Both the position numbers and the translations under genes were made by a program. Below are positions 3,816 through 42,574 of a stretch of 64,000 nt of DNA, in pieces (positions within the stretch are counted from its first letter, which is position 1; each line of letters begins with the position of its first letter). Under the pieces are notes generated by a model. That model saw only the letters and a list, made by a program, of their open reading frames with translations, had not been told where the DNA came from and made no database searches. The DNA is taken from assembly GCF_057098645.1 (NCBI RefSeq), contig NZ_CM169472.1, one strand, 5' to 3'.

Positions 3816-3834
3816 GGCGAGGCGGGGAAAGCAC
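3816..3834. other. cos: cos site (19-nt cohesive-end sequence of P2-type phages)
   Basis: GGCGAGGCGGGGAAAGCAC matches the remembered P2/186 cohesive-end sequence and lies immediately upstream of Q as expected. Confidence 0.6.
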
Positions 3835-3975
3835 TGCGCGCTGGCGGTGGTGCTGATTTTATTTTTTCAGCGTCTGAGCGCGTCGTGAAGGCGCTTAGTC
3901 TGCCCGTTGAGGCGTTGGTGTGTCTGCGGGGTGTTTTGTGCGGTGGTGAGCGTGTGAGGGCGTGATGACGGGGTG

Positions 3976-3998
3976 TAAAAAAGCCGCCCGCAGGCGGC
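3976..3998 (-). terminator. intrinsic terminator downstream of Q (minus strand)
   Basis: GC hairpin GCCGCC-CGCA-GGCGGC followed by a T-run on the minus strand just past the Q stop. Confidence 0.5.
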
Positions 3999-4003
3999 GA
4001 TGT

Positions 4004-6810: not shown

Positions 6811-6983
6811 GAATACCTCGCCGTGATGAATACACGGCAAGGCTACTGAGTCGCGCCCCGCGATTCGCTAAGGTGCTGTTGTGTCAGTGATAAGCCATCC
6901 GGGACTGATGGCGGAGGATGCGCATCGTCGGGAAACTGATGCCGACATGTGACTCCTCTAATCACTATTCAGGACTCCTGACA

Positions 6984-7838
6984 ATGGCAAAAAAAGTCTC
7001 AAAATTCTTTCGTATCGGCGTTGAGGGTGACACCTGTGACGGGCGTGTCATCAGTGCGCAGGATATTCAGGAAATGGCCGAAACCTTTGACCCGCGAGTC
7101 TATGGTTGCCGCATTAACCTGGAACATCTGCGCGGCATCCTGCCTGACGGTATTTTTAAGCGTTATGGCGATGTGGCCGAACTGAAGGCCGAAAAGATTG
7201 ACGATGATTCGGCGCTGAAAGGCAAATGGGCGCTGTTTGCGAAAATCACCCCGACCGATGACCTTATCGCGATGAACAAGGCCGCGCAGAAGGTCTATAC
7301 CTCAATGGAAATTCAGCCGAATTTTGCCAATACCGGCAAATGTTATCTGGTGGGGCTGGCCGTCACCGATGACCCGGCAAGCCTCGGCACGGAATACCTG
7401 GAATTCTGCCGCACGGCAAAACACAACCCTCTGAACCGCTTCAAATTAAGCCCTGAAAACCTGATTTCAGTGGCAACGCCTGTTGAGCTGGAATTTGAAG
7501 ACCTGCCTGAAACCGTGTTCACCGCCCTGACTGAAAAGGTGAAATCCATTTTTGGCCGCAAACAGGCCAGCGATGACGCCCGTCTGAATGACGTGCATGA
7601 AGCGGTGACCGCTGTTGCTGAACATGTGCAGGAAAAACTGAGCGCCACTGAGCAGCGCCTCGCTGAGATGGAAAACGCCTTTTCCGCACTTAAGCAGGAG
7701 GTGACTGACAGGGCGGATGAAACCAGCCAGGCATTCACCCGCCTGAAAAACAGTCTCGACCACACCGAAAGTCTGACCCAGCAGCGCCGCAGCAAGGCCA
7801 CCGGCGGTGGCGGTGACGCCCTGATGACGAACTGCTGA
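6984..7838 (+). CDS. O: capsid scaffolding protein (P2 gpO-like)
   Basis: ORF track 6918..7838; start trimmed to MAKKVSKFF; Ala/Glu-rich coiled-coil C-terminus; synteny. Confidence 0.88.
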   Translation: MAKKVSKFFRIGVEGDTCDGRVISAQDIQEMAETFDPRVYGCRINLEHLRGILPDGIFKRYGDVAELKAEKIDDDSALKGKWALFAKITPTDDLIAMNKAAQKVYTSMEIQPNFANTGKCYLVGLAVTDDPASLGTEYLEFCRTAKHNPLNRFKLSPENLISVATPVELEFEDLPETVFTALTEKVKSIFGRKQASDDARLNDVHEAVTAVAEHVQEKLSATEQRLAEMENAFSALKQEVTDRADETSQAFTRLKNSLDHTESLTQQRRSKATGGGGDALMTNC

Positions 7839-13263: not shown

Positions 13264-14508
13264 CTAAATCCAGCGAAGGTAGAATAGTAAGTAAGGATCT
13301 CTGATGTCTAATACATCGCTTTCTTGATCCCACTCGATAATACTGCTATTTGCAGCATCGTTGGCAATAGCAGTTGAGTGCTGACATGCACTGGTTATAC
13401 TAGAACCGCTTGGGCTATCGCCATGACATAACGAGGTCACTCGAGATACTAAGTCAGAATAACGAAATGTCAGCGTCGGAGGATTAGAAGCAATGGCTTT
13501 TAATAAAAAGACATAAACATCGCCTTGCCAGCCATCTTTTGATATATATGATTTTCTATCAGAACCACGCACTTTAGGTCCTTCGCGCATTTTATCCACA
13601 ATCGTGCTGTAATCTGCTGACTGAAGTGTACGTTTGCACACTCTTTGCAATGTGGCAATATCTTTTTGATATTTTATTGAAGTATCAGAAGTCTCTCTGA
13701 CATTCATTTCAAAACAAGAGTTTAAGCATAAATATTGCATTAGTTGTGGTGAGCCTGCGGACTCTTTTACTAACTCACTTATAACTTCATCAGAGGCATC
13801 TATATTGAGTAGTTTGAATCCTTTCTGAGCAATAATTTTTAAGGTTGATTCATCCCAATAATCAAAATCAATATTAAATATCCGGCCTCGTAAGTCAGAG
13901 TTACCCCGAAGAACATCATCAGAATGATATGGCACTGATGCACAAATAAATTTGCAGCCATTAGCTATGGCATCTTTTATTTGTCGTGATAGTTCGGCTT
14001 GAGCTTCTTTAGCAATATAGTGAAAATCATCGATAAAGATAACATAATCTGTGTTTGCGATTTCTCGCTTCATTAGTTGAAAGAGATCTATCGCAAATGA
14101 TTCTGAGGTTTGATCTGCTGTACTATAACCAGCGGATGCAGACCCTTTAAGACTACCTTTTGCTAAAATTACACCAGCTTGGGCAGATAATTCTCCTGTA
14201 CTTGAAAATGATGAGGTGCCAGTTTTACTTTGAACTTGGGTTACTGGTACACCAAGTATGTCGAAAACGCGCTTCCATAAATCATTAGCAGATTGAACCC
14301 CTGCTCCAGTTACTTCGATTAGCCTCTGGGTTCCAAGTACTTTCTTAACAAAGACAGTTTTTCCTGATTTTGATGGGCCAGAGATAGAAATCAGCATGGT
14401 GCCCATCTCAAGTGTATCGATTAACTGTTGCTGTTTAGATACTAGGTGATCCTCAACCAGTGTGTGGTTGGGATAACCGCCTGGGATAAAAACCTCTGTC
14501 GCCTTCAT
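13264..14508 (-). CDS. hypothetical P-loop NTPase; AT-rich cargo gene between S and V; candidate anti-phage defence ATPase
   Basis: 414-aa ORF; Walker A GPSKSGKT (aa 44-51, nt 14356..14379); Walker B YVIFIDD (aa 155-161); Ser/Thr/Gly-rich insert between them; opposite strand and lower GC than the phage backbone. Confidence 0.8.
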   Translation of the reverse strand: MKATEVFIPGGYPNHTLVEDHLVSKQQQLIDTLEMGTMLISISGPSKSGKTVFVKKVLGTQRLIEVTGAGVQSANDLWKRVFDILGVPVTQVQSKTGTSSFSSTGELSAQAGVILAKGSLKGSASAGYSTADQTSESFAIDLFQLMKREIANTDYVIFIDDFHYIAKEAQAELSRQIKDAIANGCKFICASVPYHSDDVLRGNSDLRGRIFNIDFDYWDESTLKIIAQKGFKLLNIDASDEVISELVKESAGSPQLMQYLCLNSCFEMNVRETSDTSIKYQKDIATLQRVCKRTLQSADYSTIVDKMREGPKVRGSDRKSYISKDGWQGDVYVFLLKAIASNPPTLTFRYSDLVSRVTSLCHGDSPSGSSITSACQHSTAIANDAANSSIIEWDQESDVLDIRDPYLLFYLRWI

Positions 14509-14614: not shown

Positions 14615-15250
14615 ATGAATATAAATCACTCATTACAAGAGCTTGCGCGTGCACTGCGCAACATGATCCGCACCGGTATTATCGTCGAAACCGACCTTAA
14701 CGCCGGTCGCTGCCGTGTGCAGACCGGCGGCATGTGCACCGACTGGCTTCAGTGGCTGACCCATCGTGCCGGACGTTCGCGCACATGGTGGGCACCTTCC
14801 GTGGGGGAACAGGTGCTGATTCTGGCTGTGGGCGGTGAACTCGACACGGCGTTCGTTCTGCCGGGGATTTATTCCGGCGATAACCCCGCGCCGTCTGCGT
14901 CGGCGGATGCCCTGCATATCCGTTTCCCTGACGGGGCGGTGATTGAGTATGAACCCGAAACCAGTTCACTGACGGTAAGCGGAATTAAAACGGCCAGCGT
15001 GACGGCTTCTGATTTTGTTACTGCCACGGTGCCGGTGGTCACGGTGAAAGCATCAACCCGCGTCACCCTGGACACACCGGAGGTGGTCTGCACCAACAGG
15101 CTGATTACCGGCACGCTGGAAGTGCAGAAGGGCGGGACGATGCGCGGCAACATTGAACACACCGGCGGTGAACTCTCATCAAACGGTAAGGTACTGCATA
15201 CCCATAAACACCCCGGCGACAGTGGCGGCACAACAGGGGGACCTCTATGA
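14615..15250 (+). CDS. V: baseplate spike (P2 gpV-like)
   Basis: 211-aa ORF, same length as P2 V; synteny. Confidence 0.92.
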   Translation: MNINHSLQELARALRNMIRTGIIVETDLNAGRCRVQTGGMCTDWLQWLTHRAGRSRTWWAPSVGEQVLILAVGGELDTAFVLPGIYSGDNPAPSASADALHIRFPDGAVIEYEPETSSLTVSGIKTASVTASDFVTATVPVVTVKASTRVTLDTPEVVCTNRLITGTLEVQKGGTMRGNIEHTGGELSSNGKVLHTHKHPGDSGGTTGGPL

Positions 15251-15594
15251 CAGCGCGTTATCTCGGAATGAATCGCAGTGATGGCCTGACTGTCACTGAC
15301 CTTGAGCATATCAGCCAGAGTATCGGCGATATCCTGCGCACACCGGTCGGCTCACGGGTGATGCGTCGTGATTACGGCTCGTTGCTGGCGTCAATGATTG
15401 ACCAGCCGCAGACCCCGGCGCTTGAGTTGCAGATTAAAGTCGCCTGTTACATGGCAGTGCTGAAATGGGAACCCCGCGTCACCCTGTCATCCGTCACCAC
15501 GGCGCGCAGTTTTGACGGGCGAATGACGGTCACGTTAACCGGCCAGCACAACGACACCGGCCAGCCACTTTCGTTAACCATCCCTGTGAGTTGA
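15247..15594 (+). CDS. W: baseplate wedge protein (P2 gpW-like)
   Basis: 115-aa ORF; synteny. Confidence 0.9.
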   Translation: MTARYLGMNRSDGLTVTDLEHISQSIGDILRTPVGSRVMRRDYGSLLASMIDQPQTPALELQIKVACYMAVLKWEPRVTLSSVTTARSFDGRMTVTLTGQHNDTGQPLSLTIPVS

Positions 15595-15598
15595 AACC

Positions 15599-16507
15599 AT
15601 GCCGATTATCGACCTGAACCAGCTACCCGCACCGGATGTGGTCGAGGAGCTGGACTTTGAAACCATTCTTGCCGAACGCAAGGCGACACTGATTTCCCTT
15701 TACCCGGAAGACCAGCAGGAGGCGGTCGCCCGTACCCTGACACTGGAATCTGAGCCTCTCGTCAAACTGCTGGAGGAAAATGCTTATCGTGAGCTTATCT
15801 GGCGTCAGCGTGTGAATGAGGCTGCACGGGCGGTGATGCTGGCCTGTGCAGCCGGTAATGACCTTGATGTGATTGGTGCCAATTACAACACCACACGCCT
15901 GATTATCACCCCGGCAGATGATTCAACCATCCCGCCGACACCGGCCGTGATGGAATCTGACACCGATTATCGTCTGCGTATTCAGCAGGCGTTTGAAGGT
16001 TTAAGCGTCGCCGGGTCGGTGGGGGCCTATCAGTATCATGGTCGAAGTGCCGACGGGCGTGTCGCAGATATCTCTGTCACCAGTCCTTCTCCGGCCTGCG
16101 TCACCATCTCTGTGCTGTCACGTGAAAATAACGGTGTGGCATCCGAAGACCTGCTGGCGGTGGTGCGCAACGCCCTTAATGGTGAGGACGTCAGACCGGT
16201 GGCCGACCGTGTGACCGTGCAGTCTGCCGTCATCGTTGAATACCAGATAAATGCCACGCTTTACCTTTACCCTGGCCCCGAAAGCGAACCCATTCGCGCT
16301 GCCGCCGTGAAAAAACTGGAAGCGTATATCACGGCACAGCACCGGCTGGGGCGCGACATCCGACTGTCTGCCATTTATGCCGCTTTGCATGTGGAAGGCG
16401 TGCAGCGTGTCGAACTGGCTGCACCGCTGGCCGACATCGTGCTCAACAATACGCAGGCGTCTTTCTGTACCGAATACAGCGTCGTGACCGGAGGCTCGGA
16501 TGAGTGA
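15599..16507 (+). CDS. J: baseplate protein (P2 gpJ-like)
   Basis: 302-aa ORF; synteny. Confidence 0.9.
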   Translation: MPIIDLNQLPAPDVVEELDFETILAERKATLISLYPEDQQEAVARTLTLESEPLVKLLEENAYRELIWRQRVNEAARAVMLACAAGNDLDVIGANYNTTRLIITPADDSTIPPTPAVMESDTDYRLRIQQAFEGLSVAGSVGAYQYHGRSADGRVADISVTSPSPACVTISVLSRENNGVASEDLLAVVRNALNGEDVRPVADRVTVQSAVIVEYQINATLYLYPGPESEPIRAAAVKKLEAYITAQHRLGRDIRLSAIYAALHVEGVQRVELAAPLADIVLNNTQASFCTEYSVVTGGSDE

Positions 16508-17111
16508 TTCGCGACTGCTGCCGACCGGCTCATCACCGCTTGAAGTCGCTGCCGCAAAAGCCTGTGCGGAAATTGAAAAAACGCCGGTCAGTATTCGTGA
16601 GCTGTGGAACCCGGACACCTGCCCGGCAAATCTGCTGCCGTGGCTGGCGTGGTCATTTTCGGTTGACCGCTGGGATGATAAGTGGCCGGAAGCGACAAAA
16701 CGCGCTGTTATCCGCGATGCGTATTTCATTCACTGCCATAAGGGCACTATAGGCGCAATCCGGCGTGTGGTGGAGCCGCTCGGCTATCTGATTGAGGTGA
16801 GGGAGTGGTGGCAGCTCAACGAGGAGCCGGGGACGTTCCGCATCGTTGTTGGCGTGCTTGAGCAGGGTATTACCGAGGAAATGTATCAGGAGCTGGAGCG
16901 CCTCGTTGCTGATGCAAAACCGGCAAGCCGCCATCTGACGGGACTGGCTATCAGTTTAAGTACAACCGGCAACATTTTTGCCGGTGCGGGATGCTATCAC
17001 GGTGACGCCCTGACGGTTTATCCCTACACCCCGGAGGCCATTATTGTCGGAGGGGATTATTTCCCGGCCTCGGCCATTCATTTAATTGATAACCTGAGAG
17101 TAAACGCATGA
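16500..17111 (+). CDS. I: baseplate protein (P2 gpI-like)
   Basis: 203-aa ORF overlapping J stop and H start; synteny. Confidence 0.85.
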   Translation: MSDSRLLPTGSSPLEVAAAKACAEIEKTPVSIRELWNPDTCPANLLPWLAWSFSVDRWDDKWPEATKRAVIRDAYFIHCHKGTIGAIRRVVEPLGYLIEVREWWQLNEEPGTFRIVVGVLEQGITEEMYQELERLVADAKPASRHLTGLAISLSTTGNIFAGAGCYHGDALTVYPYTPEAIIVGGDYFPASAIHLIDNLRVNA

Positions 17112-18388
17112 CAGTGAAATACTACGCCATTCTGACTAATCAGGGCGCAGCACGGCTGGCTAACGCGACGATGCTCGGCAGTAAGCTGAATCTGACGCAA
17201 ATGGCCGTTGGTGATGCGAATGGTGTCTTGCCGACACCAGACCCGGCACAGACAAAACTGATTAACCAGAAACGCATCGCGCCGCTGAATCTTCTGAGTG
17301 TTGACCCGAACAACCAGAGCCAGATTATTGCGGAGCAAATCATCCCTGAGAACGAGGGCGGATTCTGGATCCGTGAGATTGGGCTTTATGATGATGAAGG
17401 CGTACTCATTGCGGTGGCGAACTGCCCGGAAACGTACAAACCGCAGTTGCAGGAAGGCAGTGGTCGTACCCAGACTATCCGCATGATTCTGGTTGTCACG
17501 AATACCGAAGCTATTACGCTGAAAATCGACCCGTCGGTGGTACTGGCGACCCGTAAATACGTGGATGATGAAGTCCTGGAATTAAGGCTGTATGTGGATG
17601 ACCAGATGAGAAACCACATTGCCGCACAGGATCCTCATAGCCAGTATGCACAGAAACATAATCCGACATTTACCGGAGAACCAAAAGCGCCGACGCCTGC
17701 CGCAGGGAATAACACCACGCGGATTGCGACCACTGAGTTTGTTCAGGCCGCTATTACCGCTCTGATTAACGGTGCGCCAGCCACGCTGGACACACTGAAA
17801 GAAATTGCCGCAGCCATTAACAATGACCCGAAATTCAGTACCACCATTAACAATGCGCTGTCAGGTAAGCAGCCACTGGATGAGACGCTGACTCATTTGA
17901 GTGGAAAGGATGTTGCCGGTCTTCTCGCATACCTTGGTTTGGGAGAAGCGGCAAAACGGAATGTGGGCAACGGGGAAAACCAAATCCCTGATATGTCTTT
18001 CTGGACGGCTACTGGTGGCAATGGAAATTTTGTGATTCGTCAACCTGACGGGCTAATCATTCAGATGGTTACTGTAAGTATAAGCGGCCCAGTGGCGATG
18101 AATGGAATGACTGATAATGCTTATGCCATCACAGGTTCTAATAAGTCTTATATTGCCACAGCCACATTGCCCTTTGTATTTCCTAATAAGGTGCTGGGCG
18201 TTATCCCTCTGGTATCAACAACAGCCTATGGTGGTGTATCCAGTAATATTACAGGTTCATACGCGACGGCGGTTTGTTCTTTTGCCGCTGTCAGGGGGAA
18301 TAATACGATTGTGTTCAAAGTCGACAAACCACTGAATGCAGCCTTTCCTTCAGATACCAGCGTCTCAGCGTTAATCATTGGACGGTAA
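17108..18388 (+). CDS. H: tail fibre protein (P2 gpH-like); C-terminal part lies inside the invertible segment
   Basis: 426-aa ORF; crossover site inside the gene at the LGLGE motif; followed by a tail-fibre assembly gene. Confidence 0.88.
   Translation: MTVKYYAILTNQGAARLANATMLGSKLNLTQMAVGDANGVLPTPDPAQTKLINQKRIAPLNLLSVDPNNQSQIIAEQIIPENEGGFWIREIGLYDDEGVLIAVANCPETYKPQLQEGSGRTQTIRMILVVTNTEAITLKIDPSVVLATRKYVDDEVLELRLYVDDQMRNHIAAQDPHSQYAQKHNPTFTGEPKAPTPAAGNNTTRIATTEFVQAAITALINGAPATLDTLKEIAAAINNDPKFSTTINNALSGKQPLDETLTHLSGKDVAGLLAYLGLGEAAKRNVGNGENQIPDMSFWTATGGNGNFVIRQPDGLIIQMVTVSISGPVAMNGMTDNAYAITGSNKSYIATATLPFVFPNKVLGVIPLVSTTAYGGVSSNITGSYATAVCSFAAVRGNNTIVFKVDKPLNAAFPSDTSVSALIIGR
17922..17947. other. 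site-specific recombination (crossover) site of a Gin/Hin-family invertase, left copy, inside H
   Basis: TTCTCGCATACC-TT-GGTTTGGGAGAA; right half is the reverse complement of the left half of the site at 22512..22537. Confidence 0.6.
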
Positions 18389-18390
18389 GA

Positions 18391-18945
18391 ATGAACTCAG
18401 TATTCTTTTCACCCGGAAGTAAAAGTTTTTATCTGCAAGAATTGTTTCCAGAATATGAGGATGCGGGAACGCTTCCTGATGATGTTATTGAAATTACCCG
18501 AGAAACATATGAGCAATTTCTTGGGCTGCATCCAGAAGGGAAAGAAATTGGCGCTGACAGTTCAGGACGGCCAATATGGATTAATTCCCCGCCGCCTTCA
18601 AAAGAGGATGAGGTGCTGGCGGCTGAAATGAAAAAAATATCTTTGGTTTCAGAAGTCAATACCTACATCAATACCCATCAGTGGCCTGGCAAAGCTGCTA
18701 TTGGTCGTCTGAAAGGTGACGAGCTGGAACAATATAATTTATGGCTGGATTATCTGGACGCACTGGAACTGGTTGATACCTCCAGTGCTCCAGATTGCGT
18801 ATTCCGCTCTATTCGATCACGGATTGGCATCGAAGTCCGATCAGCGATTCGCATCCATTCGATCAACCGGGAACTTAACTTTTTCTACCGCTTTTTAACG
18901 CGTTTTTTCGCTGCTTTCCACTACCGGGGGATTTTTCCTCAGTGA
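18391..18945 (+). CDS. G: tail fibre assembly protein (gpG-like) with C-terminus replaced by IS-derived sequence
   Basis: 184-aa ORF; native sequence ends at ...DTSSAPD (nt ~18795), then reads into the IS21-family element. Confidence 0.7.
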   Translation: MNSVFFSPGSKSFYLQELFPEYEDAGTLPDDVIEITRETYEQFLGLHPEGKEIGADSSGRPIWINSPPPSKEDEVLAAEMKKISLVSEVNTYINTHQWPGKAAIGRLKGDELEQYNLWLDYLDALELVDTSSAPDCVFRSIRSRIGIEVRSAIRIHSINRELNFFYRFLTRFFAAFHYRGIFPQ

Positions 18946-19650
18946 CTCTCCCTGAAGGACCACTCGGTGTGAGTTATGTACCAGTCTGTCCAGGATGGCA
19001 TCTGCTGTTGTTGGGTTCTCCATCAGACCATGCCATTTATCTACCGGGAACTGGCTTACCACTATCGTGCTGCTTTGTCCGTAACGATCCTCTATGAGCT
19101 CCAGAAGGTCATTACACTGGGCGTTACTTAACTGTTCCAGCCCCAGATCGTCCAGGATTAGAACCTGTATTTTTTGCAACTGTTTCAGATATTTCAGCCA
19201 GCTGCCATCAACACGTCCCTGAGCCAGTTGTTCCAGTAATCGCCCGGTTCTACAGTACCGGACGCTGTGTTTCTGTCGACATGCCTGTTCGCCCAGCGCA
19301 TTGGCTATCCAGCTCTTGCCACATCCTGTCGGACCGGTTATCAGCAGGTTTTTCCTGTGGGTTATGTAGTGGCCGTTCAGCAGTTCTCTCATCTGTTCAG
19401 CCCGCAGACCTCTTGAGGCCGGATAGCGCAGCCCTTCCGGTGTTGCCTGGTATTTCAGGCCGGCATTTTTTCTCAACCGTGCCACACGGCTGTTTTCCCT
19501 GCTCAGAAGCTCGTCATCAACCAGCAGCGTCAGCCTTTCCTCGAACGACAGTTCGTCGTAGGTCTGAGGCGTTTCCCGCTGCCGTATCAGGCTCCCGGCC
19601 ATCGCCGGGAGTTTCAGTTGGGTCAGTTTGTTTAACAGGTTATCACTCAT
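18895..19650 (-). CDS. istB: IS21-family helper ATPase IstB
   Basis: Walker A GPTGCGKS, Walker B VLILDDLG; start trimmed to MSDNLLNKL within ORF-track 18895..19893. Confidence 0.9.
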   Translation of the reverse strand: MSDNLLNKLTQLKLPAMAGSLIRQRETPQTYDELSFEERLTLLVDDELLSRENSRVARLRKNAGLKYQATPEGLRYPASRGLRAEQMRELLNGHYITHRKNLLITGPTGCGKSWIANALGEQACRQKHSVRYCRTGRLLEQLAQGRVDGSWLKYLKQLQKIQVLILDDLGLEQLSNAQCNDLLELIEDRYGQSSTIVVSQFPVDKWHGLMENPTTADAILDRLVHNSHRVVLQGESLRKNPPVVESSEKTR

Positions 19651-19666
19651 ACTGTTGTTCCTTCTG

Positions 19667-21202
19667 TCAGTGGTAGTAGCCCGGACCACGCAGGTTTTCA
19701 TGCTCTGAAGCATATGCCGGATGTTGTTCGCCCTGGCGGGATAATGGAAGCTCCAGGTTCTCCCGATGGTGACGCAGCAGATTGTCGATAAAGCGTCTGT
19801 CAGGGGCGTTATAGTGCAGGGCAACGTAACAGGCCTTTTCCAGCCGTTCCGGGCCGTATTTTTTCTGAAGTGCCAGCAGCCCCAGAACTGCACGATAAGC
19901 CAGTTCCGGATGGGGTTTTGCCTTCAGCATGGATTCAACCACCCGGCCTGTGGACGGGCCCGTACGTTTTCCCTGCTCGATCAGGCGTTCCGGTGTCCAT
20001 GTCCCGTGCTGCCGGTGGCGCTCTGGCATGTGAAGCGGATTGGTTGTGTGTTTATATTCATGTGTGCTGCGCGGATGTTGCGCCACACACTGCCCCTTGT
20101 GCCAGAGCTGTACCACCGACTGCCCCGCCTTCAGTGACAGACGCTGACCGACCAGTTCGTGTGGAACGGAGTACCAGTGACGGGCATATTCAACGTGGTA
20201 GTCAGGGCCAACCTTCACAGCTTTGTATTCCGTGTATTCATAAGGTGCCAGAGGCAGCGGAGAGAGTGCTGGCGCATCCAGTATGCGGAAGCGTTCTGCA
20301 CGGGTTTGATTGCCGTACCCCTTCATTGGCCGGTTATTCATGTCTGTCAGTAACTCCCTAAGGCGCGCATTCAGCGCCCTGAGCGTGTGGAAGGTTTCAT
20401 TACGGATGCGGGCAAGAAGCCATCGTTCAACGATGAGGACGCCGTTTTCTGCTTTTGGTTTATCTTTAGGTTTGCGTGGTCGGGCCGGGATGATAACCGT
20501 GCCATAGTGCTCAGCCAGTGCCTGATAACTGTCGTTGATGACAGGCTCATATCGATCGGCCTTTTTCACTGCGCTTCTGAGGTTATCGGGGATGAGCAGC
20601 TTCGGTACGCCGCCCAGGAAGGTCAGGCAACGGCTGTGGGCATTTAACCATGACATCATGTCCTGACCTTCGCACGCTTCAACGTAGGTATAGTTGGACG
20701 CCCCCATTACGGCCACGAAGATTGCCACGCGGCGTATCTCACCGGTGTCCGGATTAATAACAGGAACCGTAGGACCACAGAAGTCGATAAAAAGCTTTTC
20801 GCCGGCACGATGCTCCTGGCGCATGGAGAGACGTCGCGTTTTTTTCCACTCCCGGTAGCAACGGCAGAAGTGCGAGTATCCCATCGCTTTGTTACCCGCC
20901 TGTGCCTTGTATTCCATCCACAACAGTTGCCGCGTCACACCTGGTTTTCTCATTTCCGTATCGAAGTACAACATGTCAGGCATTACAAGCTCTGATGCAA
21001 AGGTGTCTTTGGGCGGAAAAATGAGTTTCTCCAGCGTGTCATGGGATATATCAGCAGGTAATGGCCATGACAGAGAAGAGGCTTTGAAGCGGGCAAGAAC
21101 CTCAAAAACGGTTGAGGCGCTGATGTGTAACGTCAGTCCGATACAACGGTTAGTCAGCTTCTTGTCGAACTTGAGCTGAAGGATCTTAAAACAGGTTTCC
21201 AT
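19667..21202 (-). CDS. istA: IS21-family transposase IstA
   Basis: N-terminal HTH then DDE-type core; start trimmed to METCFKIL within ORF-track 19667..21313 (track start is a TTG). Confidence 0.88.
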   Translation of the reverse strand: METCFKILQLKFDKKLTNRCIGLTLHISASTVFEVLARFKASSLSWPLPADISHDTLEKLIFPPKDTFASELVMPDMLYFDTEMRKPGVTRQLLWMEYKAQAGNKAMGYSHFCRCYREWKKTRRLSMRQEHRAGEKLFIDFCGPTVPVINPDTGEIRRVAIFVAVMGASNYTYVEACEGQDMMSWLNAHSRCLTFLGGVPKLLIPDNLRSAVKKADRYEPVINDSYQALAEHYGTVIIPARPRKPKDKPKAENGVLIVERWLLARIRNETFHTLRALNARLRELLTDMNNRPMKGYGNQTRAERFRILDAPALSPLPLAPYEYTEYKAVKVGPDYHVEYARHWYSVPHELVGQRLSLKAGQSVVQLWHKGQCVAQHPRSTHEYKHTTNPLHMPERHRQHGTWTPERLIEQGKRTGPSTGRVVESMLKAKPHPELAYRAVLGLLALQKKYGPERLEKACYVALHYNAPDRRFIDNLLRHHRENLELPLSRQGEQHPAYASEHENLRGPGYYH

Positions 21203-21299
21203 AGTGCTCCTGGATTTTCTCTTTCTGGACATTGACGTCTCCACTGGTTTAAACACGGCAATGGAGACTGTGGTGAAAAGAGTTAATTCCCGGAGTGAC

Positions 21300-21434
21300 T
21301 GGCAGGATGCCAATCAATGATCGGAAGCATGCCAAATCGTGATCGATTGTGATGCCAAACTGTGATCGGAGATGGATGCCAAATCATGATCGATTCGAAT
21401 GCCAAACTGCGATCGATTCAGATGCCATTTTGCA
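21300..21434. repeat. tandem ~20-bp terminal repeats of the IS21-family element (transposase binding sites)
   Basis: five to six copies of GATGCCAAA(C/T)NGTGATCGAT-like units; similar units inverted at the other end (18796..18880). Confidence 0.7.
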
Positions 21435-21450
21435 CCAGATATTGAATGGC

Positions 21451-22056
21451 CTACGCCTCCGGTAGTTCAGGCCAGATGACATCCGGCGCGGTGCTGATAT
21501 CTGTTGCAGTCACCGCGTCAATGTAATCCAGCACAGCGTTAAGCCGGGTTGTTTCTGCCTGCGTCAGCTTCCGCCCGGCCTGCAATTTCAGCTGAATCAG
21601 ACTAATGGAAGCCATAGCCGCATCAATCAGTGACTGGCGCCGTACTTCTGCCGCGTCTACTGCGGCGTTATGCTGTGCCTCAGTGTCGGTCACCCATTTC
21701 TCACCATCCCATTTATCGTATGACGTTAACGGGGCGATAGTGGTTGTATTTTCAGGGTAATCACCCGGAACTGTGATTTCTTTTGATTCTCCTGTTTCGG
21801 TGCTATAGACGATTTCACCGCGATGGTCTGGCACATATTCCCATGAGTTAAAATCTGCAGAACGGCAAATTGCATAACCAGCTTTATATGAGCCAGGAGC
21901 ATCTAAACAGGAACATGCCGGGATACCGACACCCACAGCAAGATATTCAGTTGATGTGGAAATATATTCCCGTGTTTCACCATCATAATTATAAACGGTA
22001 ATGTCTCCGGCCTTTGTGGCGATGAGTTCATTATTTAATACAGCTTTACTTATCAT
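21451..22056 (-). CDS. tail fibre assembly protein, alternative copy in the invertible segment
   Basis: 201-aa ORF ending ...APDVIWPELPEA; directly downstream of the alternative fibre C-terminal cassette. Confidence 0.85.
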   Translation of the reverse strand: MISKAVLNNELIATKAGDITVYNYDGETREYISTSTEYLAVGVGIPACSCLDAPGSYKAGYAICRSADFNSWEYVPDHRGEIVYSTETGESKEITVPGDYPENTTTIAPLTSYDKWDGEKWVTDTEAQHNAAVDAAEVRRQSLIDAAMASISLIQLKLQAGRKLTQAETTRLNAVLDYIDAVTATDISTAPDVIWPELPEA

Positions 22057-22565
22057 GCAGCCCTCACAATATAATTAAAGGCGATGTTACGGGAGCGGGT
22101 TTCAGATGCTGTGCGAACTGAGCGAGATGCGTCGAATGTCCAGTTATAAGCGCCATAACCCTCAATAATTTCGGCTTCCTTTAGACCTGTAGATAATACT
22201 TGCCCATGTTGACTAAATGGCCCTGAACTAAGTACGTCTCTAAAAAGCTGGGTACGCCCAAAAGAACCAACAATATTCTGAATTGCATCATTCTGTGCAG
22301 ATAATAAGTTACGACCAGAGTCAATCCCGCGCCCATCATCCCAGCCACGAATAAATTCACCGCGTAAATCTGGTAATTTTAATGTTGGGTAAGCCTTTGC
22401 CAGATTTGGGTACTTTTCAGAAGAAAATACTGCTCCGTTACATTTTAGCCACCCCATTGGCGGAGTGGCTGAAGGCCACGGAACAGGCACACCAACCGGT
22501 AATGCAGAGCCTTCTCCCAAACCAACGTTTAAGAAAATGCAGAGATTATGTCTAACTGGCATCAT
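22053..22565 (-). CDS. alternative tail fibre C-terminal cassette (promoterless; expressed only after inversion fuses it to H)
   Basis: ORF contains the same NVGLGE junction motif as H at the crossover site; lies between the right crossover site and the alternative assembly gene. Confidence 0.75.
   Translation of the reverse strand: MMPVRHNLCIFLNVGLGEGSALPVGVPVPWPSATPPMGWLKCNGAVFSSEKYPNLAKAYPTLKLPDLRGEFIRGWDDGRGIDSGRNLLSAQNDAIQNIVGSFGRTQLFRDVLSSGPFSQHGQVLSTGLKEAEIIEGYGAYNWTFDASRSVRTASETRSRNIAFNYIVRAA
22512..22537. other. site-specific recombination (crossover) site of a Gin/Hin-family invertase, right copy
   Basis: TTCTCCCAAACC-AA-CGTTTAAGAAAA fits the TTnTCnnAAACC-nn-GGTTTnnGAnAA consensus with one mismatch; adjacent to the invertase gene. 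Confidence 0.65.
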
Positions 22566-22592
22566 CTCCGGTTTTTATTCAGGGGGATGCTC

Positions 22593-23186
22593 ATGCTTAT
22601 TGGCTATGTACGCGTGTCAACAAATGACCAGAACACGGAATTGCAGCGTAATGCGCTGGAGTGCGCAGGATGTGAGCTGATTTTTGAGGACAAAATCAGC
22701 GGCACGAAGTCCGACAGGCCGGGGCTGAAAAAACTGCTCAGAACATTATCGGAAGGTGACACTCTGGTTGTCTGGAAGCTGGACAGGCTGGGGCGTAGTA
22801 TGCGGCATCTGGTCATTCTGGTTGAGGAACTGCGCGAACGCGGCGTTAATTTTCGCAGCCTGACGGATGCTATTGATACCAGCACGCCGATGGGGCGTTT
22901 TTTCTTTCATGTGATGGGTGCCCTGGCTGAAATGGAGCGAGAACTCATTGTCGAGCGGACACGCGCCGGACTGGAAGCGGCCAGAGCCAAAGGTCGTATT
23001 GGTGGCAGACGACCGAAACTCACCGCGAGTGAGTGGGAGCAGGCCGGGCGTTTGCTGGCTGCAGGGGAGTCACGTCAACGCGTGGCACTGATTTTTGATA
23101 TTGGTCTGTCCACGCTCTATAAAAAATTTCCCTCATCAGCGACAAAGAATAAATTGTGTCATCCCTTAGCCAACCGGGACAAATAG
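22593..23186 (+). CDS. serine DNA invertase (Gin/Hin/Cin/Pin family)
   Basis: MLIGYVRVSTNDQ catalytic-serine N-terminus and C-terminal HTH; start trimmed from ORF-track 22548. Confidence 0.9.
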   Translation: MLIGYVRVSTNDQNTELQRNALECAGCELIFEDKISGTKSDRPGLKKLLRTLSEGDTLVVWKLDRLGRSMRHLVILVEELRERGVNFRSLTDAIDTSTPMGRFFFHVMGALAEMERELIVERTRAGLEAARAKGRIGGRRPKLTASEWEQAGRLLAAGESRQRVALIFDIGLSTLYKKFPSSATKNKLCHPLANRDK

Positions 23187-23245
23187 CCTGACATCTCCGG
23201 CACAACTGAAAATATCACTCACCCATTAACCACGGAGTTAAACGG

Positions 23246-24436
23246 ATGAGTGACTATCATCACGGCGTGCAGGTGCTGGAGATTAACGACGGCACCCGCG
23301 TCATTTCCACCGTATCCACGGCCATTGTCGGCATGGTCTGCACGGCCAGCGATGCAGATGCGGAAACCTTCCCCCTCAATAAACCGGTGCTGATTACCAA
23401 TGTGCAGAGCGCAATTGCAAAGGCCGGTAAAAAAGGCACGCTGGCGGCGTCGTTACAGGCCATCGCTGACCAGTCAAAACCGGTCACCGTTGTTGTGCGC
23501 GTGGAAGACGGCACCGGCGACGACGAAGAAACGAAACTTGCGCAGACCGTTTCCAATATCATCGGCACCACCGACGAAAACGGTCAGTACACCGGACTGA
23601 AAGCCCTGCTGGCGGCGGAGTCGGTAACCGGTGTTAAACCGCGTATTCTCGGCGTGCCGGGACTGGATACCAAAGAGGTGGCTGTTGCACTGGCATCAGT
23701 CTGTCAGAAGCTGCGCGCTTTCGGGTATATCAGCGCATGGGGCTGTAAAACCATTTCCGAGGTGAAAGCCTACCGCCAGAATTTCAGCCAGCGTGAGCTG
23801 ATGGTCATCTGGCCGGATTTCCTCGCATGGGATACGGTCGCCAGTACCACTGCCACCGCGTATGCCACCGCCCGTGCACTGGGGCTGCGTGCCAAAATCG
23901 ACCAGGAGCAGGGCTGGCATAAAACGCTGTCCAATGTCGGGGTGAACGGTGTTACCGGCATCAGCGCGTCCGTATTCTGGGATTTGCAGGAGTCCGGCAC
24001 CGATGCTGACCTGCTTAACGAGTCAGGCGTCACAACGCTGATTCGCCGTGACGGTTTCCGCTTCTGGGGTAACCGTACCTGCTCTGATGACCCGCTGTTC
24101 CTCTTTGAAAACTACACCCGCACCGCGCAGGTGCTGGCCGACACGATGGCTGAGGCGCACATGTGGGCGGTGGACAAGCCCATCACCGCAACGCTGATTC
24201 GCGACATCGTTGACGGCATCAATGCCAAATTCCGTGAGCTGAAAACAAACGGCTATATCGTGGATGCGGCCTGCTGGTTCAGCGAAGAATCCAACGATGC
24301 GGAAACCCTCAAGGCCGGAAAACTGTATATCGACTACGACTATACACCGGTGCCTCCTCTCGAAAACCTGACCCTGCGCCAGCGTATTACCGATAAATAC
24401 CTGGCAAATCTGGTCACTTCGGTTAACAGCAATTAA
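23246..24436 (+). CDS. FI: tail sheath protein (P2 gpFI-like)
   Basis: 396-aa ORF, same length as P2 FI; synteny. Confidence 0.93.
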   Translation: MSDYHHGVQVLEINDGTRVISTVSTAIVGMVCTASDADAETFPLNKPVLITNVQSAIAKAGKKGTLAASLQAIADQSKPVTVVVRVEDGTGDDEETKLAQTVSNIIGTTDENGQYTGLKALLAAESVTGVKPRILGVPGLDTKEVAVALASVCQKLRAFGYISAWGCKTISEVKAYRQNFSQRELMVIWPDFLAWDTVASTTATAYATARALGLRAKIDQEQGWHKTLSNVGVNGVTGISASVFWDLQESGTDADLLNESGVTTLIRRDGFRFWGNRTCSDDPLFLFENYTRTAQVLADTMAEAHMWAVDKPITATLIRDIVDGINAKFRELKTNGYIVDAACWFSEESNDAETLKAGKLYIDYDYTPVPPLENLTLRQRITDKYLANLVTSVNSN

Positions 24437-28385: not shown

Positions 28386-29548
28386 TGCTGGATGCGCTGA
28401 CATTTGATGCAGGCAGTACGCTGACGCCGGATTACATGCTGATGCTCGACAGCAGGGATATTACCGGCAATATCAGCGACCGTCTGATGAGCATGACCCT
28501 GACGGATAACCGGGGCTTTGAGGCTGACCAGCTTGATATTGAACTGAACGACGCCGACGGGCAGGTAGGGCTGCCGGTTCGTGGCGCTGTCCTGACGGTG
28601 TATATCGGCTGGAAAGGTTTTGCCCTGGTATGCAAAGGGAAATTTACCGTTGATGAGGTTGAACACCGGGGCGCGCCGGATGTGGTCACCATCCGCGCCC
28701 GGAGTGCAGATTTTCGCGGGACGCTCAATTCCCGCCGGGAAGGCTCCTGGCATGACACCACGCTCGGTGCGATTGTTGAGGCGATTGCCTCCCGTAACAG
28801 GCTGGAAGCCAGTGTCGCTCCGTCACTGGCCGGAATTAAAATCCCGCACATCGATCAGTCGCAGGAGTCTGATGCGAAATTCCTGACCCGTCTAGCAGAA
28901 CGCAACGGCGGTGAGGTGTCGGTAAAAATGGGAAAACTGTTGTTTCTCAAAGCGGGGCAGGGGGTGACGGCCAGCGGTAAAAAAATCCCGCAGATTACCA
29001 TCACCCGCAGCGACGGCGACCGTCATCATTTTGCGATTGCTGACCGTGGAGCCTACACCGGCGTAACGGCAAAGTGGTTACACACCAAAGACCCGAAGCC
29101 ACAAAAGCAGAAGGTAAAACTGAAACGCAAAAAGAAAGAGAAACACCTGCGCGCACTGGAGCACCCGAAAGCGAAACCGGTCACGCAGAAGAAAGCGCCA
29201 AAAGTACCGGAAGCGCGCGAAGGTGAATACATGGCCGGTGAGGCTGACAATGTTTTTGCCCTGACCACGGTATATGCCACGAAAGCGCAGGCCATGCGCG
29301 CCGCTCAGGCGAAGTGGGACAAACTGCAACGGGGCGTCGCGGAGTTCTCCATCAGTCTGGCTACCGGTCGGGCAGATATTTACACGGAAACGCCGGTCAA
29401 AGTGTCAGGCTTTAAGCGCGTCATAGACGAGCAGGACTGGACAATCACTAAGGTGACACACTTTCTGAATAATAGCGGCTTCACGACGTCCTTGGAGCTT
29501 GAGGTCAGGCTTTCTGATGTGGAGTACGAAACAGAAGATGATGAGTGA
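28385..29548 (+). CDS. D: tail protein (P2 gpD-like, late control gene D)
   Basis: 387-aa ORF; synteny. Confidence 0.92.
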   Translation: MLDALTFDAGSTLTPDYMLMLDSRDITGNISDRLMSMTLTDNRGFEADQLDIELNDADGQVGLPVRGAVLTVYIGWKGFALVCKGKFTVDEVEHRGAPDVVTIRARSADFRGTLNSRREGSWHDTTLGAIVEAIASRNRLEASVAPSLAGIKIPHIDQSQESDAKFLTRLAERNGGEVSVKMGKLLFLKAGQGVTASGKKIPQITITRSDGDRHHFAIADRGAYTGVTAKWLHTKDPKPQKQKVKLKRKKKEKHLRALEHPKAKPVTQKKAPKVPEAREGEYMAGEADNVFALTTVYATKAQAMRAAQAKWDKLQRGVAEFSISLATGRADIYTETPVKVSGFKRVIDEQDWTITKVTHFLNNSGFTTSLELEVRLSDVEYETEDDE

Positions 29549-29629
29549 TGTCTTTTGTTTATCTGTTTGTTTTATAAGGATAAATTAACTAAAATGGCAC
29601 CATCAACAAAACCGGAAGAGGTGCTCGCG

Positions 29630-29848
29630 ATGTTTCATTGTCCTTTATGCCAGCATGCCGCACATGCGCGTACAAGTCGCTATATCACTGACACGACAAA
29701 AGAGCGTTATCACCAGTGCCAGAACGTGAATTGCAGCGCCACGTTCATCACTTATGAGTCGGTACAGCGATACATCGTGAAGCCGGGAGAAGTCCACGCC
29801 GTAAGGCCGCACCCGTTGCCGTCAGGGCAGCAAATTATGTGGATGTAA
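29630..29848 (+). CDS. ogr: late transcription activator Ogr (zinc-finger)
   Basis: 72-aa ORF MFHCPLCQHAAH...CQNVNC with four Cys; start trimmed from ORF-track 29555. Confidence 0.9.
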   Translation: MFHCPLCQHAAHARTSRYITDTTKERYHQCQNVNCSATFITYESVQRYIVKPGEVHAVRPHPLPSGQQIMWM

Positions 29849-29860
29849 TTACAAACAGAA

Positions 29861-29886
29861 AGCCCCTCAGTCGAGGGGCTTTTTTT
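29861..29886 (+). terminator. intrinsic terminator after ogr
   Basis: AGCCCCTC-AGTC-GAGGGGCT hairpin followed by TTTTTTT. Confidence 0.75.
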
Positions 29887-29976
29887 GTCGATGTGGTCAA
29901 TGTGTGGACGTGACCAGAAATAAATCCTTTTATTTCATGCAATTAGATATCAAAAAATGTCACCAATAACTGACAT
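29887..29976. other. attR: attR: prophage right attachment region with Int arm-type repeats and a core overlapping the pflA start
   Basis: direct repeats TGTGGTCA / TGTGGACG resemble the P2 Int arm-site consensus TGTGGACA; host-like sequence resumes at ~29962. Confidence 0.5.
29950..29976 (-). pseudogene. pflA: pflA 5' fragment: native start codon plus five codons (MSVIG) fused to phage sequence, reading MSVIGDIF-stop
   Basis: reverse complement ATGTCAGTTATTGGT sits ~191 nt downstream of the pflB stop, where pflA starts in E. coli; the frame hits a stop after 8 codons. Confidence 0.7.
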
Positions 29977-30100
29977 TGCGGTGTTTCTCCAGATGTGGCC
30001 CATCTGAGGCCGTGTTGGTGCGCAGCTCGAAGGCTACGTCGAGTCTGTTTTGGCAGTCACCTTAAAGTATAGATAGCTGACAAAAAAGGCTCTCGTGCTA

Positions 30101-30128
30101 AAAAAGGCCCCACTTTCGTGGAGCCTTT
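30101..30128 (-). terminator. pflB intrinsic terminator
   Basis: imperfect GC hairpin followed by a T-run on the minus strand just downstream of the pflB stop. Confidence 0.55.
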
Positions 30129-30167
30129 ATTGTACGCTTTTTACTGTACGATTTCAGTCAAATCTAA

Positions 30168-32450
<2,283 letters not shown>

Positions 32451-42564: not shown

Positions 42565-42574
42565 TTCTCTGACT

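What the first reader, a model, noticed from the sequence alone, without database searches (positions are those of the whole stretch)
17922..22537. Gin/Hin-type invertible tail-fibre segment (host-range switch)
Two 26-bp sites (17922..17947 inside H, 22512..22537 next to a serine invertase gene) are inverted copies sharing the half-site TTCTCCCAAACC. Between them lie the current fibre C-terminus plus an assembly gene on the plus strand, and an alternative fibre C-terminal cassette (22053..22565) plus its own assembly gene (21451..22056) on the minus strand. Both fibre versions carry the same LGLGE junction motif at the crossover, so inversion would swap the receptor-binding tip, as in Mu G or P1 C segments. 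P2 itself has no such switch.
Basis: partly seen in the sequence, partly recalled or inferred. Interest (0 to 1): 0.55.

Follow-up and report, generated by a model that had tools for sequence, protein, structure and literature searches.

The report
Invertible tail-fibre switch carrying an IS21 insertion
This is a real but well-known kind of phage DNA switch, in which a Gin/Cin-type enzyme flips a segment to swap the tip of a P2-like prophage's tail fibre; the one unusual detail is an insertion sequence that landed inside the segment and broke one fibre-assembly gene.

Summary
Two 26-bp sites, 17922-17947 and 22512-22537, are the only matches to the Gin/Cin crossover-site consensus in the 64 kb (0 expected by chance). 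They lie in inverted orientation and share the inner half-site plus the 2-bp core (TTGGTTTGGGAGAA).

An intact 197-aa serine invertase (22593-23186) follows. It is 79% identical to Mu Gin, 78% to P1 Cin and 85% to the Fels-2 invertase. Ser9 and the residues that contact the Fis protein and the enhancer DNA are present.

Inverting the segment in silico fuses the constant part of H in frame to the minus-strand cassette. That exact 432-aa hybrid protein is encoded in a public metagenome scaffold, which matches the insertion-free, inverted version of this locus with 1 mismatch in 3506 nt. Among 5,426 complete E. coli genomes, 19 hold the current orientation and 30 the inverted one. Two sibling isolates differ only by an exact inversion at the homologous sites.

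It accounts for most of the 4.6-kb length and cuts the plus-strand assembly gene after codon 135 of 147.

P2-like phages with this module are already deposited, and inversion in P2-like prophages has been shown experimentally. Verdict: correct, already known, low interest.

The parts
17108..18388 (+). Tail-fibre gene H as currently assembled (426 aa). The constant part runs to the crossover at 17934/17935. The variable tip Sv is 17936-18388.
   Evidence: Pfam Phage_tail_fib covers residues 1-150, with a weak Gp53-like_C match in the tip. PHROG tail fibre families match. The exact protein is encoded in GCA_023686665.1.
17922..17947 (+). Left recombination site (gix/cix-type): TTCTCGCATACC TT GGTTTGGGAGAA. 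It lies inside H and codes for ..LLAYLGLGE..
   Evidence: The site is identical in all relatives examined. The inversion endpoint in the sibling isolates falls here.
18391..18795 (+). 5' 405 nt (codons 1-135) of the tail-fibre assembly gene for Sv, cut by the IS. The ORF reads on into the IS as far as 18945.
   Evidence: Removing 18796-21440 restores a 147-aa Tfa, in which Pfam Caudo_TAP covers residues 9-142. The restored sequence is colinear with IS-free relatives.
18790..18795 (.). Left copy of the 6-bp target-site duplication CCAGAT.
18796..21434 (-). Intact IS21-family insertion sequence, 2639 bp, with ends TGCG...TGCA. istA is 19667-21202 and istB is 18895-19650, both on the minus strand. 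Repeated terminal IstA-type motifs lie at 21305-21415 and 18813-18831.
   Evidence: NCBIfam transpos_IS21 at 1e-84 and IS21_help_AAA at 2e-76. It is 99.7-99.9% identical to copies in many E. coli replicons. Five other copies have the same 2639-bp length and 5-6 bp duplications, and IstA and IstB each differ by 1 aa. The terminal repeats are families D1/D2 and I6/I7.
21435..21440 (.). Right copy of the target-site duplication CCAGAT.
21441..21479 (+). Displaced 3' end of the plus-strand tfa (IEWPTPPVVQAR plus stop). It overlaps the 3' end of the minus-strand tfa' convergently.
   Evidence: The same arrangement is annotated in IS-free relatives.
21451..22056 (-). Alternative tail-fibre assembly gene tfa' (201 aa), intact.
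   Evidence: PHROG 105 tail fibre assembly at 1.6e-97. Pfam Caudo_TAP_N and Caudo_TAP are recorded for the relatives' equivalent product: 200 residues in L016 and 201 residues in L017.
22053..22523 (-). Alternative fibre tip cassette Sv'. It has no start codon of its own inside the segment and is read only after inversion fuses it to the constant part of H.
   Evidence: The in-silico inversion gives an in-frame 432-aa H' with a Pfam Collar domain at 287-334. The exact H' is encoded in an ENA metagenome scaffold.
22512..22537 (+). Right recombination site: TTCTCCCAAACC AA CGTTTAAGAAAA, 55 bp upstream of the invertase start.
   Evidence: In relatives the outer half-site varies while the inner half-site and core are invariant.
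22593..23186 (+). Serine DNA invertase (197 aa), Gin/Cin/Hin/Pin subfamily, intact.
   Evidence: It aligns over residues 1-182 with Mu Gin (PDB 3UJ3, 4M6F; E about 1e-94; 143/182 identical). PHROG 125 DNA invertase at 6e-101. It is 100% identical to the invertase of strain PEC408, 85% to Fels-2 and 78% to P1 Cin. Ser9, K46/K47/R50 and Q150/R153/L154 are present.
22611..22682 (+). Stretch homologous to the annotated P1 enhancer of Cin-mediated inversion (cin nt 19-90). Its role as a recombinational enhancer here is presumed, not shown.
   Evidence: P1 annotation. 57 of 72 nt are identical to P1, against 40 of 58 for the next 58 nt. This is inference only, because coding constraint confounds the comparison.

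Best explanation
The locus is a Gin/Cin/Hin-family invertible segment in the tail-fibre module of a P2-like (Peduovirus) prophage of E. coli. It sits between I/H and FI, where P2 itself carries fun(Z).

Proposed mechanism:
- The invertase (22593-23186) binds the two 26-bp sites, 17922-17947 inside H and 22512-22537 just upstream of its own gene.
- It cuts at the central 2-bp core (TT/AA) and rotates the strands by 180 degrees. This is presumably activated by host Fis bound to an enhancer in the 5' part of the invertase gene.
- The result is inversion of the segment between the cores.

Consequences of each orientation:
- As sequenced, H (constant residues 1-276) is joined to tip Sv, followed by its chaperone gene tfa.
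- After inversion, the same constant part is joined in frame to Sv' (Collar-domain tip), followed by tfa'. A fraction of progeny phage would then carry a different receptor-binding tip.

The IS in this genome:
- An intact IS21-family element has transposed into the segment. It cuts the last 12 codons of the plus-strand tfa and adds 49 IS-encoded residues.
- It leaves both sites, the invertase, the presumed enhancer and the Sv'/tfa' pair untouched.
- The segment should therefore still invert. Only the currently expressed state is likely impaired in fibre assembly; the inverted state should be normal.

Shown: the sites, the in-frame fusion, an intact invertase, natural occurrence of both orientations with breakpoints at the sites, and the IS structure. 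Inferred: activity in this particular genome, Fis dependence, the host-range consequence, and loss of function of the Tfa::IS fusion.
For: Sites
- They are unique in the window, with 0 expected by chance.
- They have the architecture of the cixL/cixR sites annotated in P1, whose crossover is placed in the centre of the core.

Invertase
- It is full length and 79% identical to Mu Gin, with catalytic Ser9.
- It carries K46/K47/R50 and Q150/R153/L154. These equal Hin 47/48/51 and 151/154/155, which PMC3798978 reports as uniquely conserved in Fis/enhancer-dependent invertases. The numbering offset comes from the 1HCR alignment.
- It is 100% identical to the invertase of PEC408, a genome with the segment in the other orientation.

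Fusion
- In-silico inversion gives an in-frame 432-aa H'.

Both orientations in nature
- The IS-free inverted construct matches 30 complete E. coli genomes at 80% coverage or more, 7 of them as one colinear piece at 98.2-98.7%.
- The IS-free current orientation matches 19 genomes.
- The exact H is found in GCA_023686665.1 (IS-free, same orientation, 99.77%).
- The exact H' is found in an ENA scaffold (IS-free, inverted, 1 mismatch in 3506 nt).
- Sibling isolates MEI1A-0323 and MEI2O1-23 are identical over 10,113 bp except for an exact 1905-bp inversion that ends in the shared half-site.

Context and precedent
- The same gene order is annotated in phages pro483, Peduovirus magyaro and Fels-2.
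- Inversion in two P2-like prophages of EPEC E2348/69 was shown by sequencing and PCR (PMC4272514).
- The P1 C segment is 4256 bp, so a 4590-bp segment is within the working range of this family.

IS
-.
- Caudo_TAP spans residues 9-142 of the restored Tfa.
- The conserved C-terminal domain of Tfa proteins mediates trimerisation and assembly (PMC9608196).
Against: - No reads from this isolate are available, so inversion of this IS-bearing copy has not been observed.
- The IS/tfa junction is absent from all 5,426 complete E. coli genomes, and the fusion protein is not on record. No second example exists in either orientation.
- No consensus sigma-70 promoter for the invertase was found by the simple scan.
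- Conservation of the enhancer stretch is confounded by coding constraint. Fis-like 15-mers were found only with a loose pattern.
- In the sibling isolates that differ by inversion, the adjacent invertase is annotated as a frameshifted pseudogene. That inversion may therefore have been catalysed in trans, or the frameshift may be an assembly error.
- Only part of the prophage lies in the window, so its overall integrity is unknown.
Confidence: 0.88

Rival explanations
1. The switch is a locked relic in this genome. The architecture is that of an invertible segment, but the copy no longer flips. Possible causes are the 2.6-kb IS insertion changing the site-enhancer geometry, or the invertase not being expressed. 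The sequenced orientation would then be fixed, with a crippled chaperone.
For: - The IS-bearing version is seen only once and in one orientation.
- No obvious invertase promoter was found.
- The IS disrupts the tfa of the state that is currently expressed. This would be tolerated if the prophage tail fibre is no longer under selection.
- An independent IS21-family insertion (ISEc12) in the same gene in strain EP91A hints at decay of such prophages.
Against: - Both sites, the invertase ORF and the enhancer-homologous stretch are untouched by the IS. The invertase is 100% identical to an allele found in a genome of the opposite orientation.
- The P1 C segment of 4.26 kb inverts, so segment size is not limiting.
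- The intact target duplication and the 99.7-99.9% identity of the IS to other copies indicate a recent insertion. There has been little time for the switch to decay.
Confidence: 0.1
2. The two orientations seen among genomes arise from RecA-dependent homologous recombination or from horizontal exchange of fibre cassettes, not from site-specific inversion by the adjacent recombinase.
For: - Tail-fibre tips are notoriously mosaic. The Sv'/tfa' cassette is about 90% identical to the stf/tfa 3' region of lambdoid phage HK97 (H29/H30).
- The sibling isolates that differ by inversion carry an invertase annotated as a pseudogene.
Against: - The only sequence shared by the two ends is 14 bp, too short for efficient RecA recombination.
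- The breakpoints fall exactly in that sequence in every comparison.
- The inverted interior is identical to the base (0 of 1905 mismatches in the siblings; 1 of 1950 between the window and L017), which excludes import of foreign cassettes.
- An intact Gin-family invertase is always adjacent.
Confidence: 0.02

Closest known systems
Invertible tail-fibre modules of P2-like (Peduoviridae) phages and prophages: Escherichia phage pro483 (KR073661), Peduovirus magyaro ('P2' of O157:H43 T22, KC618326), Salmonella Fels-2 (NC_010463), and the P2-like prophages of EPEC E2348/69
   Same: - The gene order is the same: I - H - tfa - (tfa') - (Sv') - invertase - FI.
- The left site is identical and the inner half-sites are the same.
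- The invertase is 98% identical to that of pro483 and 85% to that of Fels-2.
- pro483 and the T22 phage carry the segment in opposite orientations.
- Inversion was shown experimentally in the EPEC P2-like prophages (PMC4272514).
   Different: - This copy carries a 2639-bp IS21-family element inside the segment that truncates one tfa. This was not found in any of 5,426 complete E. coli genomes.
- Some relatives (the MEI strains; one EPEC prophage) have a third cassette or site, giving more than two states. This window has only two sites.
Phage Mu G segment with Gin
   Same: - The serine invertase is 79% identical over 182 residues.
- The sites are 26 bp with 12-bp half-sites around a 2-bp core.
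- A constant N-terminal fibre part is joined to one of two oppositely oriented tip-plus-chaperone cassettes.
- The invertase gene lies outside the segment with its 5' end next to the right site. This last point is from established knowledge of Mu, not tested here.
   Different: - The tail module is P2-type (H/G homologues) rather than Mu S/U.
- The IS-free segment is 1.95 kb rather than about 3 kb.
- The tip cassettes are different.
Phage P1 C segment with Cin
   Same: - The invertase is 78% identical.
- The cixL/cixR sites have the same architecture and the same TT/AA core.
- P1's enhancer is annotated inside the 5' end of cin (nt 19-90). The homologous stretch here is 57/72 identical.
   Different: - In P1 the 3' end of cin abuts cixL. 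Here the 5' end of the invertase gene faces the segment.
- The C segment is 4256 bp without any IS.
e14 P segment with Pin, and Salmonella H segment with Hin
   Same: They belong to the same Fis/enhancer-dependent invertase subfamily. The Fis-contact residues reported for Hin are conserved here (PMC3798978). e14 also swaps a tail-fibre C-terminus (PMC4272514).
   Different: - Hin flips a promoter for flagellin genes rather than a coding cassette, and hin lies inside its segment.
- e14 is a defective lambdoid element.
- Neither was compared at sequence level here, apart from the Hin DNA-binding domain.

Membership tests
Gin/Hin/Cin/Pin (Din) family DNA-inversion systems | Small serine recombinase: N-terminal resolvase-type catalytic domain with the nucleophilic Ser near residue 9-10, and a C-terminal helix-turn-helix DNA-binding domain | tested here: met
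   Residues 1-182 align with Mu Gin (3UJ3/4M6F, E about 1e-94), and residues 139-188 align with the Hin DNA-binding domain 1HCR. Ser9 is present. PHROG 125 'DNA invertase' scores 6e-101. The 197-residue invertases of L016 and L017 carry PF00239 and PF02796.
Gin/Hin/Cin/Pin (Din) family DNA-inversion systems | Two 26-bp recombination sites in inverted orientation, each with two imperfect 12-bp half-sites around a 2-bp core, and the core identical in both sites | tested here: met
   17922-17947 and 22512-22537 match TTCTCNNAAACCNNGGTTTNNGAGAA with 1 and 2 mismatches. They are the only matches in 64 kb, with 0 in 100 shuffles. The core is TT in both when read in the same sense. The architecture is the same as the annotated P1 cixL/cixR.
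Gin/Hin/Cin/Pin (Din) family DNA-inversion systems | Residues that mediate activation by the Fis/enhancer complex (Hin K47, R/K48, K/R51; Q151, R154, L155) | tested here: met
   K46, K47, R50, Q150, R153 and L154 are present. Window numbering equals Hin minus 1, from the 1HCR alignment. The criterion is taken from PMC3798978.
Gin/Hin/Cin/Pin (Din) family DNA-inversion systems | Cis-acting recombinational enhancer with two Fis-binding sites | tested here: inconclusive
   The stretch homologous to the annotated P1 enhancer is present (22611-22682) and 57/72 identical. It lies in strongly conserved coding sequence, and Fis-like 15-mers were found only with degenerate patterns. Fis binding cannot be tested with these tools.
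Gin/Hin/Cin/Pin (Din) family DNA-inversion systems | The segment is actually found in both orientations, with breakpoints at the sites | tested here: met
   This holds for the element, not for this individual IS-bearing copy. 19 complete genomes have the current orientation and 30 the inverted one. L016 (99.77%) and L017 (99.97%) are in opposite orientations. Sibling isolates differ by an exact inversion.
Invertible tail-fibre (host-range) segments of the Mu G / P1 C type | The crossover lies inside the fibre gene, so that one constant N-terminal part is joined in frame to either of two tip cassettes, each followed by its own assembly gene | tested here: met
   The fusion is in frame. The two tips differ: a weak Gp53-like_C match versus a Collar domain. 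There are two Caudo_TAP chaperone genes. One of them is IS-disrupted in this copy.
Invertible tail-fibre (host-range) segments of the Mu G / P1 C type | The two orientations give phage with different host ranges | not testable with these tools
   This needs induction of the prophage and plating or adsorption assays on strains with different surface receptors.
IS21 family insertion sequences | istA transposase followed by the istB helper ATPase, multiple terminal repeats, TG...CA ends, and a short target duplication | tested here: met
   NCBIfam transpos_IS21 (284 bits, cutoff 160) and IS21_help_AAA (257 bits, cutoff 200). Terminal repeats are seen (D1, D2, I6, I7). The ends are TGCG...TGCA, the target duplication is 6 bp, and the length is the same in five other copies.

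The most novel reading that the evidence does not exclude
The IS21-family insertion may make the switch asymmetric. In the sequenced orientation the fibre tip is made with a truncated chaperone, so particles are probably fibre-defective or poorly infective. In the flipped orientation both the tip and its chaperone are intact. A host-range switch would then have become an on/off switch for infectivity.

A second possibility is that this tfa is a recurrent target of, or is under selection for, IS21-family insertions. An unrelated family member, ISEc12, sits 60 bp away in the same gene and the same orientation in strain EP91A.
Probability: 0.12. Interest if true: 0.3.

Novelty: already known. Interest (0 to 1): 0.15.

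Why it matters
It matters little for discovery. The mechanism is a textbook one. The same module, 99.8-99.97% identical without the IS, is already in public genomes and deposited phages, and inversion in P2-like prophages has been shown experimentally.

Its practical value is for annotation:
- The 'phage tail protein' fragment on the minus strand and the long 'tfa' ORF that reads into the IS should not be taken as independent genes.
- The orientation in any assembly is only the majority state of a flipping population.
- The 4.6-kb size is due to a recent IS insertion.

The IS-bearing copy could serve as a natural test of whether the C-terminal dozen residues of a Tfa chaperone are needed, and of whether a 2.6-kb insertion alters inversion frequency.

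Tried and rejected
- NCBIfam gave no family for H, Sv' or either Tfa. PHROGs and Pfam were used instead.
- The promoter/terminator scan of 22300-23300 found no plus-strand promoter for the invertase, so nothing can be said about its expression.
- I suspected target specificity of the IS because BLAST alignments ran 5-14 nt into the flanks. Comparing six copies showed unrelated flanks and a plain 5-6 bp duplication, so this was rejected.
- A strict Fis-consensus search in the invertase 5' region gave one hit and a loose pattern gave four. One pair has centres 49 bp apart. This is not decisive.
- The exact-sequence look-up of the Tfa::IS fusion protein found nothing. The IS/tfa junction and the full IS-bearing query found no genome. 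I therefore could not test whether the IS-bearing segment occurs in both orientations.
- A third cassette or site, as in shufflon-like relatives, was looked for and is absent here.
- A literature search for 'pro483' returned no description of its invertible segment.
- The metagenome and genome-collection DNA scans were not used. The exact-protein look-ups already returned both orientations.

Full report
**1. What is in the sequence**

The region lies in the tail module of a P2-like prophage of E. coli.
- The chromosomal flank 36400-42600 is 100% identical to O145:H28 genomes (serC-aroA-ycaL-cmk-rpsA), and pflB is at 30168-32450.
- The local gene order is V, W, J, I (14615-17111), H (17108-18388), a tail-fibre assembly gene (from 18391), an IS, a minus-strand assembly gene (21451-22056), a minus-strand fibre fragment (22053-), a serine recombinase gene, then FI, FII and onward from 23246.

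- The left site is 17922-17947, TTCTCGCATACC TT GGTTTGGGAGAA. The right site is 22512-22537, TTCTCCCAAACC AA CGTTTAAGAAAA.
- They form the longest inverted repeat of the region.
- A search with the family consensus TTCTCNNAAACCNNGGTTTNNGAGAA at up to three mismatches finds these two sites and nothing else in 64 kb. No match occurred in any of 100 shuffles.
- The shared 14-mer, made of the inner half-site plus the core, occurs once on each strand.
- The inner half-sites, inside the segment, are identical and encode G-L-G-E in both cassettes. The outer half-sites differ (7 of 12 identical).

**2.

An intact IS21-family element occupies 18796-21434.
- It is 2639 bp long with ends TGCG...TGCA. istA and istB are on the minus strand (NCBIfam equivalog hits above cutoff).
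- Arrays of terminal repeats are visible.
- A 6-bp target duplication, CCAGAT, lies at 18790-18795 and 21435-21440.
- Five other copies from E. coli chromosomes and plasmids have the same length, the same ends and 5-6 bp duplications in unrelated flanks. Their IstA and IstB each differ from this copy by one residue.
- The element is 99.7-99.9% identical to those copies, so the insertion is recent.

Effect on the assembly gene:
- Removing the IS and one duplication copy restores a 147-aa Tfa ending ...SSAPDIEWPTPPVVQAR.
- The restored 3' end overlaps the 3' end of the minus-strand tfa' convergently, exactly as in IS-free relatives.
- The Caudo_TAP domain spans residues 9-142 of the restored protein.
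- The insertion after codon 135 therefore removes the end of the conserved C-terminal domain and appends 49 IS-encoded residues.
- In Tfa proteins the variable N-terminal domain binds the fibre, and the conserved C-terminal domain drives trimerisation and assembly (PMC9608196, citing North et al. 2019). Loss of function of the fusion is plausible but untested.

Of the 4590 bp between the crossover points, 2645 bp are IS plus duplication. The native segment is 1945 bp.

**3. The recombinase**

- The likely start is 22593 (MLIGYVRVST...), preceded by AGGGGGA. The longer ORF from 22548 is an upstream extension.
- The 197-aa protein aligns over residues 1-182 with phage Mu Gin (PDB 3UJ3 and 4M6F, E about 1e-94, 143/182 identical). 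It aligns more weakly with the gamma-delta and Tn3 resolvases and with the Hin DNA-binding domain.
- It is 78% identical to P1 Cin, 85% to the Fels-2 invertase, 98% to that of phage pro483 and 100% to that of E. coli PEC408.
- Ser9 is present.
- McLean et al. (PMC3798978) report that Hin residues K47, R48 and K51 (helix B) and Q151, R154 and L155 (DNA-binding domain helix 1) are uniquely conserved in Fis/enhancer-dependent invertases. The corresponding residues K46, K47, R50, Q150, R153 and L154 are all present (numbering offset).
- In P1 the enhancer of inversion is annotated at cin nt 19-90. The homologous stretch here (22611-22682) is 57/72 identical, against 40/58 for the next 58 nt. This sits in highly conserved coding sequence, so I treat the enhancer as inferred.

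**4. Does inversion make sense, and does it happen?**

The P1 sites annotated by Lobocka and colleagues are cixL, CAATCCTAAACC TT GGTTTAAGAGAA, and cixR, TTCTCTTAAACC AA GGTATTGGATAA. Their crossover is placed in the middle of the core. The sites here have the same architecture and the same core.

Inverting 17934-22525 in silico fuses H residues 1-276 in frame to the minus-strand cassette. The product is a 432-aa H' (...AYLGLGEGSALPVG...RAA) followed directly by tfa'. H' carries a Phage Tail Collar domain at 287-334, while the present H tip has only a weak Gp53-like_C match. The two tips are therefore different.

The comparative test was decisive.
- Among 5,426 complete E. coli genomes, the IS-free current orientation is found at 80% coverage or more in 19 genomes.
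- The IS-free in-silico inverted version is found in 30 genomes, 7 of them as a single colinear alignment at 98.2-98.7%.
- An exact-sequence look-up found the present H (426 aa) in GCA_023686665.1. That copy is IS-free, in the same orientation, and 99.77% identical over 3506 nt.
- The same look-up found the predicted hybrid H' (432 aa, every residue) in an ENA metagenome scaffold. That scaffold matches the inverted IS-free construct with 1 mismatch in 3506 nt.
- Two sibling soil isolates (MEI1A-0323 and MEI2O1-23) are identical over 10,113 bp except for an exact 1905-bp inversion whose ends lie in the shared half-site.
- The deposited phages pro483 and 'P2' of O157:H43 T22 also carry the module in opposite orientations.

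**5. What remains inferred for this copy**

- The IS-bearing version was found nowhere else, so I could not see it in both orientations.
- The IS does not touch the sites, the invertase or the presumed enhancer. The P1 C segment (4256 bp) shows that the family handles segments of this size.
- I rate continued inversion as likely.
- I rate it probable that only the sequenced state (Sv with Tfa::IS) is impaired, while the flipped state (Sv' with Tfa') is intact.
- The simple promoter scan found no invertase promoter.
- Fis dependence, host-range change and the phenotype of the fusion need experiments.

**6. Comparison with what is known**

- Many P2-like phages carry this module at that position: pro483, Peduovirus magyaro, Fels-2, Salmonella phage MET_P1_103_31 and others.
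- Goldberg et al. 2014 showed by deep sequencing and PCR that two P2-like prophages of EPEC E2348/69 undergo such inversions. One has two states. The other has three repeats and four states, with inversions of about 2.2 and 1.8 kb (PMC4272514).
- The locus passes every testable membership criterion of the Gin/Hin/Cin/Pin family. The enhancer remains inconclusive, and the host-range effect cannot be tested here.

**7. Verdict**

The kind of system and this very element, minus the IS, are already known and annotated. The only novelty is an apparently unique, recent IS21-family insertion inside the segment. Interest is low.

Noticed in passing
L003 (E. coli EP91A, NZ_CP149815.1), locus 2637-5215: A different IS21-family element (ISEc12) is inserted in the same plus-strand tfa of a 98%-identical prophage. 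It sits about 60 bp upstream of the insertion point seen in the window, and its istAB genes are in the same orientation. These are two independent IS21-family hits in one 444-bp gene.
   Followed up: partly
L005/L006 (E. coli MEI1A-0323 and MEI2O1-23), locus 6424-7049: The sibling isolates that differ only by an exact inversion of the segment carry an adjacent invertase annotated as frameshifted with an internal stop. Either another invertase acts in trans or the frameshift is an assembly error. These loci also have a third small minus-strand ORF (5908-6225) between the segment and the invertase, which hints at a multi-cassette relative.
   Followed up: no
window 13264-14508 (-): A 414-aa ORF with a P-loop-like motif lies on the opposite strand between tail genes S and V. 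From established knowledge of P2, this is the orf30 cargo position (not checked here). It matches the PADLOC candidate defence family PDC-S59 (E 2.8e-31) and nothing in NCBIfam. The same gene is present in the near-identical prophage of GCA_023686665.1 (L016 3157-4401).
   Followed up: partly
window 1-3674 (+): Two large ORFs (755 aa, which may continue upstream of the window start, and 440 aa) lie just before the portal gene Q. They have no match in NCBIfam or PADLOC. They may be cargo of the variable region next to cos in P2-like phages.
   Followed up: partly
window 21431-22530: The alternative cassette (the Sv' tip plus tfa') is about 90% identical at DNA level to the 3' end of stf plus tfa of lambdoid phage HK97. 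This is an example of tail-fibre tip exchange between unrelated phage types.
   Followed up: no
window 29548-30168: The prophage tail gene D ends at 29548 and chromosomal pflB starts at 30168 on the minus strand. The right prophage end (ogr and attR) must therefore lie in this roughly 600-bp gap. The left part of the prophage (int to A) is outside the window.
   Followed up: no
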